Assembly (NCBI GenBank): GCA_964016885.1
Contig: CAXHJY010001233.1
Location: forward strand, 1 to 64,000
DNA length: 64,000 nucleotides
Reading direction: 5' to 3'
DNA from: Eledone cirrhosa
Taxonomy: Eukaryota
Below the pieces are notes generated by a model, which was given only the letters and a program-made list of their open reading frames with translations, was not told the DNA's origin and made no database searches. Both the position numbers and the translations under genes were made by a program. Positions 1,823-61,868 of the stretch are shown here, piece by piece. Each line of letters begins with the position of its first letter. The stretch's first letter is position 1.

Positions 1823-1859
1823 ATTTTCAAACCTGACACACTTTCCCTTAACCACATCC

Positions 1860-1924
<65 letters not shown>

Positions 1925-1967
1925 ATACATGGATGTGGTTAAGGGAAAATGGGGCAGGTTTGAAAAT
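1823..1967. repeat. Inverted duplication (~40 bp arms) flanking a (TA)n tract
   Basis: attttcaaacctgacacactttcccttaaccacatccgtg ...(TA)n... catggatgtggttaagggaaaatggggcaggtttgaaaat. Confidence 0.85.
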
Positions 1968-2125: not shown

Positions 2126-3582
2126 GAAGAGAAAGGTGAAATTGATAAAACTGATATAGGTTTAGTAAATTTACAAAGAAACGAACTTATATAATATCTA
2201 TATATATATAGTAAATCCGTAGAAAACTAGTAAGTGTAGCAAAGTCAGCACTCAGTGCTAGATCAGAGTGTATATAATAAGAACAAAGTGGAGGTATAAC
2301 CATGACTGATCAATAAATTCTTGATGTAACACCTCCACTTATATATATATATTTCTATATTATATATGAATTGATAGAACACAATGTGGGTGTCACTGAA
2401 CTAATCTCAAAGTCATAGAGTGAAAAATAAAAATATAATTTCATACCAAAGAAGAATTGAATTTCAATAAAGCAGTAAAAAGTAATGTTTATATTTGAGT
2501 GAAATCTGATGAAACCATATATACACATATATACACTCGTAGAAATATTGTTTCATCTGGATCGTTGTCTTTAATTAGGTCACAGTTTTATTTTTTTAAT
2601 TTCCACCCCGGTTTAAAATGTCACGTTGAATCTCCTTATGTCACGTTGAATCTCCACGTGTCTGTGGAGTAATTCTCAGCCATTTACACGTTTATTTCAC
2701 GAGCAGGACTCGACGGAGGGAGGCAGCTGCCAACTATATCAAGATTATACAGTTTTGTTTATTAACATACTTGTTAGTGCACACATACAGAGAAACTCTC
2801 TCTAACACATACATACACTCTCACTAACACACACACATACATGTATACACATTCTCTCTAACACACACTCTATCACTAACACATACACATCATGTATACA
2901 CATTCTCTCTAACACTCTCTCACTAACACATACACATTCACTCTAATACACACACACTCTCTCTCTAACATACACATGCATGTATAGACATTCTCTCTAA
3001 CACACACACACACACTATCTCATACACATACAACCCCAACTCAGAGAAATAAATTCTCAGTCCCAGGCGAATTAGTGTATTTGTTCAATTGTATTAGAAA
3101 TTCCATCCATGAAGATAGATATGAATTCTCGGGTGATTAGATTAATAAATATTGTAATTAATCAATAGATATATTTTTTAAAAAATCGAACGTTTAAAAC
3201 CAAGCAGAGATTGTTGTATATAAGAAGTTGAAAGGAGGTCAGGAAAACAGGTCAGTTTTATTGAGTTCATTCATAAAAAATATAGTGTGTCTTATTGGTA
3301 ATAAATGTCAATTAAATGTTATTGTTTGCTGTTTAGGTCTGTGTTAAACTTAATCGAATAAGATCTATGATAGGATGTGCCCCAGCTGTAACCACCCTGT
3401 TAAAGCCCTAGGCACTGAAAACATTGTGAAGGGTCGATTGGTCCATTGTAAAATCCGGCACTGGAATAACAAAAAATAAAAACAAAAAACTCCATGTGGT
3501 CCCTCTTTACTTGAGGCCCTATGTACGAACTTATTTTTGTTACTGGTTAATCCTGGCCTGTGTACATATGGCTATGATAGAA

Positions 3583-4202: not shown

Positions 4203-4335
4203 AACAAAGGAATTGTGGTAAGGAACCAGGTGGACCATAACGCACCAGAGTACTCAATACTTAGGGTAGTAGAGTGGGAAATAGGGAAAAAGTATGACCC
4301 CGACGGCAGAGCTCAAACCGTTTCGACTTTTTTCC
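4203..4335 (-). mobile_element. Family B TA-embedded hairpin element, hairpin partly deleted
   Basis: Tail nearly identical to 7214 and 15734 copies; only one hairpin arm remains (ends ...gtttcgac tttttttcc). Confidence 0.85.
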
Positions 4336-4611
4336 TATATATATATCATCATCCCCGACGTAAAATGGTGATGATGATGATGATACATATAAATCTTCCT
4401 TTATATAGCGGAAGTAGAAGAGAGAGAGTGTGTGTTGTGTGTGTGTGTTTATTAGAAATGTCTATTGTAATATATTTACGCCCTTATTTATGAATTAGGA
4501 AGTCAAGATTAAAGTTTGTTTTGTTTTTATGTTTGTTTTTCCTCTCCAGTTTACTTTTAAGTGGTAAACAATGTTTTAAAAGATTATTTAACCTAGGATG
4601 GTAGCTATTAA

Positions 4612-6637: not shown

Positions 6638-6639
<2 letters not shown>

Positions 6640-6777
6640 CGAAGGAAGTGTGGTAAGGAACCAGGTGGACCATAACGCACCAGAGTACTCGATATTTTGG
6701 GTAGTAGAGTGGGTAATAGTCCAGAAATAGCCGTCGAAAAGGCTTGAGCTCTGCCGTCCGGGTCCTGAACATTTTCA
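6638..6777 (-). mobile_element. Family B element, one hairpin arm missing
   Basis: aacgaaggaagtgtggtaagg...gtgggtaatag joined directly to tccagaaatagccgtcgaaaaggcttgagctctgccgtccgggtcctgaac; TA-flanked. Confidence 0.85.
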
Positions 6778-6813
6778 TATATATATATATATATATTTCC
6801 ATTACCACTGTAA

Positions 6814-6900
6814 GGGGTCTGACGAGCCGCGGATTACAGAGTCGGGATAGATCGATACGGATCGAACCTTGAACTGATCAGTGGCGAAACGCGCGTCACC
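6814..6900 (+). ncRNA. Type I hammerhead ribozyme, PLE pseudo-LTR type (GUC site)
   Basis: ggt-CTGACGA-gccgc...gtggc-GAAAC-gcgc-GTC-acc; AATAAA at 6905, tail ends in TA repeat at ~6953. Confidence 0.85.
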
Positions 6901-6967
6901 AACCAATAAACGTGATAAAGGAGTAACCAATCGTCCTTGTTATTTTATTTCACTATATATATACGTA

Positions 6968-7126
6968 TGAAAAGATCGAGGACCCCCGACGGCTGAGCAC
7001 CGGATGTAGCTGTCGAAACGGCAGAAGATCAGCCGTCGGGGTCCTGAATCATTTCATATTACCCACTCTACTGTGCCAAGTATCGAGTACTCTGGTCTAG
7101 CTGGGTTTTTTTACCGCACCCTATCT

Positions 7127-7130
<4 letters not shown>
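6968..7130 (+). mobile_element. Family B subfamily element
   Basis: ggacccccgacggctgagc...tagctgtcGAAACGGCagaagatcaGCCGTCggggtcctgaa plus tail tattacccactctac...tatcgagtactctgg. Confidence 0.8.
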
Positions 7131-7198
<68 letters not shown>

Positions 7199-7213
7199 TA
7201 TATATATATATAT

Positions 7214-7400
7214 AACAAAGGAATTGTGGTAAGGAAGCAGATGGACCATAACGCACCAGAGTACTCAATACTTAGGGTAGTAGAGTGGGAAATAGGAAAA
7301 AGTATGACCCCGACGGCAGAGCTCAAGCCGTTTCGACGGTTATTTCCAGAAATAGCCGTCGAAACGGCTTGAGCTCTGCCGTCGGGTTCATACTTTTTCC
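7214..7400 (-). mobile_element. Family B element with complete ~55-bp-arm hairpin
   Basis: Hairpin 7292-7403 (2 mismatches, 2-nt loop); 80-bp tail; (TA)n on both sides. Confidence 0.9.
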
Positions 7401-7740
7401 TATATATATATATATACACACACACACACGCGCGCAATCATTCTTTCTAACATTGAACCAGTATTTGACTGGTTCTTTATTTTATTGACCCCCGAAAGGA
7501 TGAAAGGCAAAGCTGACCTCAGCAGGATTTCAATGTTAAGAGCAGGAAGAAATGCGGTATTGCGTTCGCCACGGGACACAGCTGATATAGTCGTATAGTG
7601 CCCTAGACAAAGGGGTAGAATCTACCCCTCCCCCCCCTTCTCTTACATTCTCTATTTAATATATGTTTTTTTATTGCAAACAAATATATATTATATTCCT
7701 TTTATCAACTCTGGTACGATTTATATTGAGACCATAAAGG

Positions 7741-11857: not shown

Positions 11858-11861
<4 letters not shown>

Positions 11862-12009
11862 AAAAGAGTCCGACCGTTTCGACAGCTAGATCGGATCGAG
11901 TTGTCGAAACGGCCGAAGCTCAGCCGTCGGGGTCTTTTCCTATTACCCACTCTACTACTCTAAGTATCGAGTACTCTATGGTCCACATGGTATCTTACCA
12001 TACTTTCTT

Positions 12010-12012
<3 letters not shown>
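11858..12012 (+). mobile_element. Family B subfamily element
   Basis: ccgtttcgacagctagatc g gatcgagttgtcGAAACGGCcgaagctcaGCCGTCggggtc plus tail; TA-flanked. Confidence 0.82.
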
Positions 12013-12140: not shown

Positions 12141-12231
12141 CGTATCTGAGGACCTTGCGATTTCAGAGTCAGGTTCGATCATTACATCGATCGTGCCTCG
12201 AGCTGGTCGCCAGAGAAACGATTGTAATATG
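12141..12231 (+). ncRNA. Type I hammerhead ribozyme with long stem II (GUA site)
   Basis: cgtat-CTGAGGA-[gcgat..agg..cgatc/gatcg..cct..gtcgc]-GAAAC-gatt-GTA-atatg, then AATAAA at 12235 and tail into (TA)n. Confidence 0.7.
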
Positions 12232-15733: not shown

Positions 15734-15930
15734 AACAAAGGAATTGTGGTAAGGAACCAGATGGACCATAACGCACCAGAGTACTCAATACTTAGGGTAG
15801 TAGAGTGGGAAATAGGAAAAAGTATGACTCCGACGGCAGAGCTCAAGCCGTTTCGACGGCTATTTCTGGAGTAGAAATAGCCGTCGAAACGGCTTGAGCT
15901 CTGCCGTCGGGGGTCATACTTTTCCCTATA
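15734..15930 (-). mobile_element. Family B element with complete hairpin
   Basis: Hairpin 15812-15930 (...gtttcgacggctatttct ggagt agaaatagccgtcgaaac...); TA-flanked. Confidence 0.9.
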
Positions 15931-29506: not shown

Positions 29507-29922
<416 letters not shown>

Positions 29923-47303: not shown

Positions 47304-47369
47304 TATTTTATCTGACGAAGGCATGCCATATTTTTAATATGGTATGCCCGAAATATGTATAATGAAATA
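47304..47369 (+). ncRNA. Hammerhead ribozyme, family E
   Basis: tattttat-CTGACGA-aggcatgccatat tttta atatggtatgccc-GAAAT-atgt-ATA-atgaaata; 12-bp stem II. Confidence 0.85.
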
Positions 47370-54715: not shown

Positions 54716-54817
54716 AACAAAGGAATTGTGGTAAGGAACCAGATGGACCATAACGCACCAGAGTACTCAATACTTAGGGTAGTAGAGTGGGAAATAGGAA
54801 AAAGTATGACTTTTTCC
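54716..54817 (-). mobile_element. Family B element with hairpin excised
   Basis: Tail identical to the 15734 copy, ending ggaaaaagtatgac-tttttcc. Confidence 0.88.
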
Positions 54818-54856
54818 TATATATATATATTCAGCCTGTCTGATGGTTGCGATAAC

Positions 54857-55045: not shown

Positions 55046-55075
<30 letters not shown>
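54857..55075. repeat. 3x tacctaatataataaatatttagttaggtagg separated by (TA)n
   Basis: Units at ~54857, 54937 and 55017. Confidence 0.9.
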
Positions 55076-55080
<5 letters not shown>

Positions 55081-55492
55081 ATATTAACAAATGGAAACTA
55101 TATTTATAAAACCATATTTATTTTATTATACATATTTCAAGGGCCACCAAGGCAAATTATGGTGCGCTTTCATCAGATAAAATACAATACAGATTAGTTT
55201 TATAAATAAATATTGACATACCCTGAAAAGACAACCTTACAGGTTGGAGCTTTCAGGGTATGTCAATATTTATTTATAAAACTAATCTGTATTGTATTTT
55301 ATCTGATGAAAGCGCACCATAATTTGCCTTGGTGGCTCTTGAAATATGTATAATAAAATAAATATGGTTTTTTAAATATTGTTTCCATTTGTTAATATAT
55401 TGTATATTTACTCCCCTTATATGTTGAGTGCTTTATATCAGTTATACAAATTTTTAAGCTTGTTGAATCCCAACAAATTAAATATAACCTCT

Positions 55493-61668: not shown

Positions 61669-61865
61669 AGGAAAATGTTCAGGACCCCGACGGCAGAACT
61701 CAAGCCGTTTCGACGACTATTTCTGGATTCCAGAAATAGCCGTCGAAACGGCTTGAGTTCTGCCATCGGGGTCCTGAACATTTCCCTATTACCCACTCTA
61801 CTACCCAAAGTATCGAGTACTCTGGTGCGTTATGGTCCACCTGATTCCTTACCACACTTCTTTCG

Positions 61866-61868
<3 letters not shown>
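61669..61868 (+). mobile_element. Family B element with complete ~60-bp-arm hairpin
   Basis: gaaaatgttcaggaccccgacggcagaactcaagccgtttcgacgactatttctgga t tccagaaatagccgtcgaaacggcttgagttctgccatcggggtcctgaacatttcc plus tail; TA-flanked. Confidence 0.9.

What the first reader, a model, noticed from the sequence alone, without database searches (positions are those of the whole stretch)
7214..7403. Family B: palindromic half-hammerhead with the CUGAnGA half replaced by the antisense of the GAAA/GUC half
Seen: 9 copies (4203, 6638, 6968, 7214, 11858, 15734, 29641, 54716, 61669). One arm reads gccgtc-GAAA-CGGC-ttgagctct-GCCG-TC-ggggtc, which fits HHR stem II 3' arm, GAAA, stem III, GUC and stem I 3' arm. 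The CGGC/GCCG pairing persists in two subfamily copies with different loops (agaagatca, cgaagctca). Where gacccc-CUGAnGA-gacggc is expected, the sequence is instead the reverse complement of that arm, so the hairpin apex equals the stem II loop. Inference: cDNA folds back at stem II and self-primes second-strand synthesis. Alternatively the family propagates as a cis-inactive substrate cleaved in trans by an RNA supplying CUGAnGA. Arm-matched variants (gagctc/gagctc at 7.3 kb, gaactc/gagttc at 61.7 kb) suggest the arms were copied from each other at some stage.
Basis: partly seen in the sequence, partly recalled or inferred. Interest (0 to 1): 0.75.

Follow-up and report, generated by a model that had tools for sequence, protein, structure and literature searches.

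The report
Mirror-image stubs of a Penelope retrotransposon
This hairpin repeat, present in roughly 150,000 pieces in the genome, is two short copies of the end of a recently copied Penelope-type jumping gene set back to back in TA repeats, and its fixed shape suggests that both copies are likely made at once from one RNA whose start lies in the middle of the element's hammerhead self-cutting RNA motif.

Summary
The missing half exists: 2,411 exact matches carry ACCCC-YUGAnnA, a long stem II, GAAAC, stem III and GUC-GGGG, mostly with the known U3-A8 core. They are the 3' pseudo-LTR of a 3.53-kb Hydra-clade Penelope-like element (716-aa RT plus GIY-YIG). Family B is its shortest head-to-head insertion: two arms, exactly one with a 78-nt tail (144 of 147 copies). 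Arms stop 11-22 nt upstream of the stem II base, next to the stem II loop, with a new junction in nearly every copy (62 of 63). Fold-back at stem II is not the main route: arms rarely cross the loop, long cDNAs read through the site 27 of 27 times, and mirror junctions are equally common (46:43). The best model is twin priming on an uncleaved RNA with a discrete 5' end there, perhaps a capped initiator start. No RNA data were available. Trans-cleavage is unsupported. This scan noted the same kind of inverted Penelope ends before in other genomes.

The parts
7214..7291 (-). 78-nt Penelope tail: the stretch between the two reverse-transcription start sites; in the parent it runs on into the start of the open frame
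   Evidence: 90% identical to positions 3-83 of the L236 unit; the parent continues GTTATCTAG where B ends GTT|ATATA
7292..7346 (-). tailed arm: 3' end of the pseudo-LTR (stem II 3' strand, GAAAC, stem III, GUC, stem I 3' strand, to CCTAT)
   Evidence: matches unit 3477-3531; C11.1 at 7335 on the minus strand
7343..7350 (.). apex: junction of the two arms, each trimmed 4-6 nt short of the TTAGTC site beside the stem II loop
   Evidence: CCAG form of the mirror pair CTGG 46 / CCAG 43 / CTAG 11 among the first 100 of 234 listed (counted by eye)
7345..7403 (+). tail-less arm: same pseudo-LTR end, ending CCTAT in (TA)n; GAAAC at 7361-7365, stem III 7364-7368 with 7378-7382, C17 at 7383, stem I strand 7384-7388
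   Evidence: matches unit 3473-3531; sequence
7130..7213 (.). (TA)n target run on the tail side
   Evidence: ends of two-armed copies nearly all meet ATATA
4203..4337 (-). family B copy, tail plus tailed arm to GTCGAAAC, other arm mostly deleted
6638..6776 (.). family B copy, tail plus tail-less arm, tailed arm deleted
6968..7130 (+). family B copy of the older subfamily, tail on the right
11858..12012 (+). family B copy of the older subfamily with internal deletions
15734..15929 (-). complete family B copy, different apex
29641..29742 (.). two-armed older copy without a tail
54716..54822 (-). tail plus arm remnants, hairpin almost wholly deleted
61669..61867 (+). complete family B copy, tail on the right, arm-matched gaactc/gagttc variant

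Best explanation
Family B is the shortest form of the head-to-head insertion made by a Hydra-clade Penelope-like retrotransposon, likely formed when two cDNAs are primed on the two strands of a cut (TA)n site and run off an RNA end beside the hammerhead stem II loop. Shown: the parent element and its hammerhead-shaped pseudo-LTR; the one-tail rule; both ends finish in TAT next to (TA)n; arms span the GUC site; arm 5' ends stop within 22 nt of the stem II base; each junction is new. Inferred: the GIY-YIG/RT protein cuts both target strands and primes once at the tail end and once 78 nt upstream, probably on one uncleaved RNA; both cDNAs end at a discrete RNA 5' end (about 0.7) and are joined by microhomology-type end joining with trimming, A-tailing and templated fill-ins. 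Least certain (about 0.5): that end is a capped Pol II start at an initiator-like TTAGTY/TCAGTY/TCATTT word, which would leave the RNA with only half a ribozyme, so it could not cut itself.
For: Parent: unselected loci L107 and L121 hold one arm preceded by the core half; L165 and L236 add RT (YRDD) and GIY-YIG; 2,411 and 1,717 full motifs, controls 0. N7 varies (G/T/A/C) while U4 G5 A6 are kept. The youngest motif folds as a hammerhead at minimum energy; stem II has 3 two-sided changes. Tail rule: 144 of 147 by script, 93 of 97 among copies not chosen for a tail, none with two true tails; long insertions show the same pairing where both ends are in view. Two cDNAs: long pairs join at unrelated positions, mostly over 0-8 nt of microhomology; L165 and L158 have a tail-less long arm with a tailed short arm; 3 of 95 copies join two subfamilies; mirror junctions 46:43. 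Discrete end: 141 of 149 short arms end within 22 nt; summed contig depth in run X1 rises about 15-fold across L236:2212-2230; 27 of 27 arms that reach an internal pseudo-LTR read through (15); arms with no palindromic partner also end at 16-22 (L166, L148, L336). Start-site hints: TTAGTY is kept in all three subfamily groups even where unpaired; 13 of 61 loci have a lone C/G between two fully kept arms and none a lone A/T (by eye), while the parent has T there in 99 of 100 (by eye). Papers: two RT start sites, both strands cut and extended, uncleaved RNA used (PMC11167929); Penelope has an internal Inr/DPE promoter (PMC2377424); untemplated G as a cap mark (PMC4859970).
Against: None of the 27 long arms ends at the proposed start, though full-length copies of an RNA begun there should; long copies come from RNAs that start further upstream. 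The lone C/G could come from end-joining fill-ins, and the G test over all arms was ambiguous because the partner arm often supplies a G. No clear DPE match at +28 to +32 (consensus recalled). Some junctions lie in template hairpins: L239, L299, L309, and older copies L215, L258, L359. The hammerhead fold is not more stable than shuffles (z -0.6), one abundant subfamily has a C3-A8 mismatch (49 of 141 long arms, in a biased sample), and activity is untested. 7 of 61 tailed arms end 22-27 nt downstream of the stem II base, near the cut site, so some templates may be cleaved. Pfam found no family for the whole 716-aa protein; clade rests on motifs, not on a tree.
Confidence: 0.72

Rival explanations
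1. One reading: one cDNA copies into stem II, folds back on itself and self-primes the second arm.
For: The apex lies next to the stem II loop. Some copies keep the parent loop, such as AAATTCTAATTT, and L239 joins at a 7-bp template hairpin. Arms share a subfamily in 92 of 95 copies. Self-priming at inverted Penelope junctions is proposed in PMC3846280 (Discussion read).
Against: Fold-back at stem II needs one arm to cross the loop; only 8 of 149 short arms pass 22 nt. In the older subfamily the loop is about 30 nt up, yet most two-armed copies end at 18 or less. 27 of 27 internal sites are read through. Tail-less long arms with tailed short arms cannot come from copy-back. Snap-back of the run-off end remains possible as a repair step.
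Confidence: 0.15
2. B copies are themselves sources: each tailed arm keeps the initiator word and both priming sites, is transcribed from its apex outwards, and rebuilds a fresh palindrome at every insertion, as a non-autonomous SINE-like partner.
For: Short arms outnumber long ones about 7 to 1 (88 of 100) to 15 to 1. It would explain why no long copy ends at the apex site. It is compatible with the best explanation and differs only in the source locus.
Against: B haplotypes track the autonomous subfamilies: 11 of 14 common outer-segment types occur among long arms, including the haplotype class of the 7214 copy and the youngest open-frame subfamily. Many B arms are trimmed past the initiator word. 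No RNA data.
Confidence: 0.3
3. B is a ribozyme-dead substrate that propagates by being cleaved in trans by an RNA supplying the core strand.
For: The arm holds the substrate half and the genome has thousands of core strands. A few arms end near the GUC site.
Against: A whole-copy transcript would lock the substrate in a perfect hairpin. Arms are copied across the GUC site, with no depth step there. Cleavage was dispensable for a Penelope element in vitro (PMC11167929).
Confidence: 0.03
4. B is an ordinary palindromic MITE moved as a DNA unit, with apex variation from later cruciform breakage.
For: TA flanks, high copy number and mirror-symmetric deletions fit centre-break repair, which may add to the variation.
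Against: Every part maps onto the end of an RT-encoding element; the tail sits on one side only; 62 of 63 apices differ; arms without a partner end at the same site.
Confidence: 0.02

Closest known systems
Hydra-clade Penelope-like elements (Craig et al. 2021, PMC8557442; passages, section 11 and supplement part 2 read)
   Same: C-terminal GIY-YIG, DKT, CxCx5C linker, CxxC and CxH motifs, (TA)n target, hammerhead near the 3' end, inverted 5'-truncated copy with a tail at one end. The list includes one octopus family, Hydra-1_Obim.
   Different: Unit is 3.53 kb (listed families mostly under 3 kb); RWR for RWK; U3-A8 core with a stem II of about 55 nt and a 5-bp stem III with a 9-nt loop, where the listed Hydra motifs have CUGAnGA and short stems; tail is 78 nt, not 30-40; the minimal palindrome is not described in the parts read.
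Poseidon element of Anolis, in vitro (Frangieh et al. 2024, PMC11167929; parts 1-2 of 4 read)
   Same: Two internal RT start sites that define the tail; both target strands cut and extended; uncleaved RNA is the template; ribozyme cleavage dispensable.
   Different: There priming needs no match to the target; here both start sites end in TAT beside (TA)n. The strict one-tail pairing and a fixed 5' end are not reported there.
Penelope inverted pseudo-LTRs with palindromic junctions in Adineta vaga (Arkhipova et al. 2013, PMC3846280; passages and Discussion read)
   Same: Head-to-head inverted pseudo-LTRs, optional tail on one, Inr-like words in the pseudo-LTR.
   Different: Explained there by self-priming on an antisense template; low copy number. 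The data here favour two sense-templated cDNAs.
PLE hammerheads (Cervera and de la Pena 2014, PMC4209133; parts 1-2 of 4 read)
   Same: Type I motif in pseudo-LTRs; U3-A8 covariant seen in Schistosoma Cercyon; pairs of motifs on opposite strands 100-700 bp apart.
   Different: B itself lacks the core half; the parent motif has a full stem III and could fold as a monomer.
Non-LTR retrozymes (bioRxiv 10.64898/2026.07.22.740005; part 1 of 5 read)
   Same: Short non-coding derivatives of PLE pseudo-LTRs.
   Different: Retrozymes are tandem repeats with a complete hammerhead per unit; B is an inverted pair with no complete ribozyme.
LINE-1 twin priming and retroviral strong-stop DNA (recalled; twin priming seen only as a reference title in PMC4859970)
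   Same: Two primers on one RNA; short run-off cDNA to the RNA 5' end.
   Different: Twin priming in L1 inverts non-overlapping parts; here the two cDNAs overlap fully and are integrated as a palindrome.

Membership tests
Penelope-like element, endonuclease-bearing (parent) | single frame with RT and C-terminal GIY-YIG | tested here: met
   716-aa frame with YRDD at 348 and VIY...YIG at 591-608; PF01541 at E 0.0047, below the curated cut-off, on the L165 piece; Atlas neighbours carry HTH_animal, GIY-YIG and RVT_1; no Pfam hit for the whole protein
Penelope-like element, endonuclease-bearing (parent) | tandem units, pseudo-LTRs, inverted 5'-truncated copy, tail at one end | tested here: met
   3,531-bp tandem arrays and inverted pairs
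Hydra clade | DKT, RWK, CxCx5C, CxxC and CxH motifs; no GxKF/Y | tested here: met
   DKT 117, RWR 37 (not RWK), CNCPDRSIC 572, CNLC 670, CKH 698, no GxKF/Y
Hydra clade | insertion into (TA)n | tested here: met
Hydra clade | placement in the clade on an RT tree; absence of the CCHH motif by alignment | not tested
   no reference proteins were fetched
Type I hammerhead (parent) | core C3UGAnG8A9 / GAAA / UH, or a Watson-Crick 3-8 covariant | tested here: met
   U3-A8 in 82 of 141 long arms (TTGAGAA, TTGATAA, TTGAAAA, TTGACAA); C3-A8 mismatch in 49; canonical C3-G8 in 0 (sample biased by the searches)
Type I hammerhead (parent) | three helices with G10.1-C11.1 | tested here: met
   92.7% of cells paired, G-C in 45 of 47; two-sided changes in stem II only
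Type I hammerhead (parent) | self-cleavage at GUC | not testable with these tools
   weak hint only: 7 of 61 tailed arms end near the site
Type I hammerhead (family B itself) | core strand upstream of stem II | tested here: not met
   replaced by the inverted arm; the 15 CTGAnGA hits beside B arms have no stem II
Non-LTR retrozyme | tandem units each with a complete hammerhead | tested here: not met
MITE | terminal inverted repeats at both ends, moved as a unit | tested here: not met
   tail lies outside the palindrome on one side; 62 of 63 apices differ
Initiator-type Pol II start | initiator word at the RNA end | tested here: inconclusive
   TTAGTY/TCAGTY/TCATTT kept at 17-22 in all groups; consensus recalled; no RNA evidence
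Initiator-type Pol II start | capped RNA 5' end | not testable with these tools
   no RNA holder listed; indirect lone-G sign

The most novel reading that the evidence does not exclude
The element starts a capped transcript inside its own hammerhead, beside the stem II loop. That splits the ribozyme, so the 5' copy cannot cut, and leaves both priming sites near the RNA 5' end. A protein dimer primes both sites on one RNA and integrates a strong-stop-like palindrome. These stubs, possibly able to transcribe and re-copy themselves, are about nine in ten of all insertions and give a genome-wide record of how Penelope elements make inverted ends.
Probability: 0.35. Interest if true: 0.72.

Novelty: new variant of a known kind. 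Interest (0 to 1): 0.5.

Why it matters
How Penelope-like elements form inverted ends and one-sided tails is called open in the papers read (PMC8557442, PMC11167929). This family offers tens of thousands of natural products with a strict one-tail rule and a fixed stop site, plus near-identical open-frame parents for an in vitro assay, so coupled twin priming versus self-priming becomes directly testable. It also warns that about 0.7% of this genome (4,056 of 590,000 sampled bases) looks like a MITE but is retroelement-derived, and that hammerhead searches limited to CUGAnGA and short stem II miss the parent.

Tried and rejected
Rfam scan of the window: no hammerhead among the 150 of 256 matches shown, which were microsatellite-driven. 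Patterns for a canonical core within 34-36 nt gave 15 chance hits and 0 hits; the gap was too short (true gap about 54 nt), so these were not fair tests. No RNA holder listed; runs X1, X4, X5, X6 are contigs of unknown kind and cannot show RNA ends; the few contigs from organisms B and C are no evidence of range. No solved-structure match. Neptune clade considered first, dropped after the Hydra motifs matched. Helentron, Dada, Crypton and MITE readings dropped once the parent was found; none was searched for. L391 was first read as a full-length copy starting at the apex (note); one search showed a (TA)n run between a B copy and a truncated element, so it was left out of the read-through count. 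A G test over all short arms was ambiguous. Matched rare variants between arms were only slightly above shuffled pairs (6 against 1.2 in the largest group). L001 and L011 share a short left flank and private variants but differ at the apex, which hints at apex change after copying; not resolved. Paper searches for a description of such stubs (and a word search in PMC13282606) found none; a search for C3U/G8A activity found nothing. Subscription journals and Repbase/Dfam were not searched; supplements of the bioRxiv retrozyme preprint were not seen.

Full report
Observation. The window lies in a 3.0-Gb animal genome; its repeat landscape recalls an octopus, which is recalled and untested. The copy at 7214-7403 is a 78-nt unique part plus a 112-nt palindrome between (TA)n runs. 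All nine named places hold members, several deleted. Unselected stretches gave 31 pieces in 590 kb, about 150,000 genome-wide; the exact arm motif occurs 49,606 times, reversed control 0.

Finding the parent. Two early patterns for a canonical core failed because their gap was too short. Two unselected loci then showed a single arm preceded by non-palindromic sequence with the missing half. A DNA search gave 30 such ends, and patterns gave 2,411, 125 and 1,717 full motifs for overlapping subfamily sets. Upstream lie an RT and a GIY-YIG frame. A protein search found many open frames near 784 codons, in 3,531-bp tandem arrays of near-identical units. The 716-aa protein has RWR, DKT, CxCx5C, CxxC and CxH and lacks GxKF/Y, matching the Hydra clade description. 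No tree was built.

The ribozyme. Among 141 long arms (a sample biased by my searches) the core is U3-A8 in 82 and C3-A8 in 49, with N7 free; none is canonical. U3-A8 is reported in Schistosoma PLEs. On 47 of 113 distinct motifs, 92.7% of cells pair; stem II has three two-sided changes, stems I and III none, partly because patterns fixed those letters. The youngest motif's minimum-energy fold is the hammerhead, though no more stable than shuffles. Activity is unknown.

Architecture. The unique part is the Penelope tail. Ends fall at two sites 78 nt apart, both ending in TAT beside (TA)n; 13 of 30 long ends carry the tail (by eye). Two-armed short copies have exactly one tail in 144 of 147 by script; on inspection one exception is a false second tail, one a partly deleted tail and one a lost tail. 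Among 97 not chosen for a tail, 93 have one and none has two; independent choice would give about a quarter with two. So the two priming events are coupled (inference). Long inverted pairs join at unrelated positions, mostly over 0-8 nt of microhomology, and L165 and L158 pair a tail-less long arm with a tailed short arm, which copy-back cannot make. Three of 95 copies join arms of two subfamilies. This fits the in vitro Poseidon result of two start sites and extension of both strands on uncleaved RNA.

The apex. Of 63 apex-unselected copies 62 differ. Mirror deletions relative to the tail are 46 to 43 among the first 100 of 234 (by eye). In 149 apex-unselected short arms the ends pile at 11-21 nt upstream of C11.1 and 141 end within 22, just short of the stem II loop. 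In a walk over the first 100 exact motifs of contig C1, 12 are long. Contig depth in run X1, possibly the assembly's own sample, steps about 15-fold at this place and not at GUC. The site is not a strong stop on continuous RNA: 27 of 27 arms that reach an internal pseudo-LTR read through (15; copies chosen for open frames; L391 excluded; arms ending in the tail or frame not counted). Arms without a palindromic partner end there too, so later palindrome repair is not the cause. I infer a discrete RNA 5' end.

Is it a start site? For: TTAGTY or TCAGTY sits at 17-19 in all three groups, also where it is unpaired; it lies 231 nt before the frame's methionine; Drosophila Penelope has an internal Inr/DPE promoter; 13 of 61 loci with both arms kept to 17 have a lone C/G and none a lone A/T (by eye), while the parent has T in 99 of the first 100 listed, as expected of a copied cap; A-run/T-run apices suggest tailed cDNA ends. 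Against: no long copy ends there; no clear DPE; end-joining fill-ins can mimic the G; no RNA data. I put this at about even odds.

Minor routes. Some junctions lie in template hairpins (L239, L299, L309, L215, L258, L359), and 7 of 61 tailed arms end near GUC. B haplotypes mostly match long copies (11 of 14 common types), so no separate lineage is needed, but self-propagation is not excluded.

Comparison and verdict. Inverted Penelope ends, tails, opposite-strand hammerhead pairs and a self-priming proposal are in print, and this scan noted similar cases in other genomes. The fixed, very abundant minimal palindrome and the evidence for an RNA end inside the ribozyme were not found in my searches. 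New variant of a known kind; interest 0.5.

Noticed in passing
window 55069-55410: A second family of head-to-head palindromes: 160-nt arms, 98% complementary, each arm with a CUGAUGA...GAAAU hammerhead-like motif facing outwards; related single motifs at 47312, 49091 and 54312.
   Followed up: no
window 6810-6960 and 12146-12226: Other hammerhead-like motifs with canonical cores and long stem II, the first with a palindromic GCGC stem III and AATAAA, ending in (TA)n; probably ends of other Penelope families.
   Followed up: no
L240, L135-L164: An abundant subfamily has a C3-A8 mismatch in the core yet spread widely and keeps an open frame, suggesting cleavage is dispensable.
   Followed up: partly
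L234-L237 (G000:C1 near 91.47 Mb and 437.20 Mb): Tandem arrays of four near-identical 3.53-kb units with open frames; L235 has a 55-bp piece of the element repeated more than 30 times at its 5' end.
   Followed up: partly
L236:2242-2270: The arm can form a competing hairpin AGCCGU-CGAA-ACGGCU that hides GAAA; it is in the minimum-energy fold of L240, so the ribozyme may be switchable.
   Followed up: no
window 1832-1958: Short inverted repeat arms flanking a (TA)n run, a different arrangement from family B.
   Followed up: no
L018 left flank: Hairpin followed by CTAG at a TA run, resembling a Helitron 3' end (resemblance recalled).
   Followed up: no
L001:1417-1703 and L011:1417-1707: Two B copies share about 80 nt of simple-repeat left flank and private variants but differ at the apex.
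   Followed up: partly
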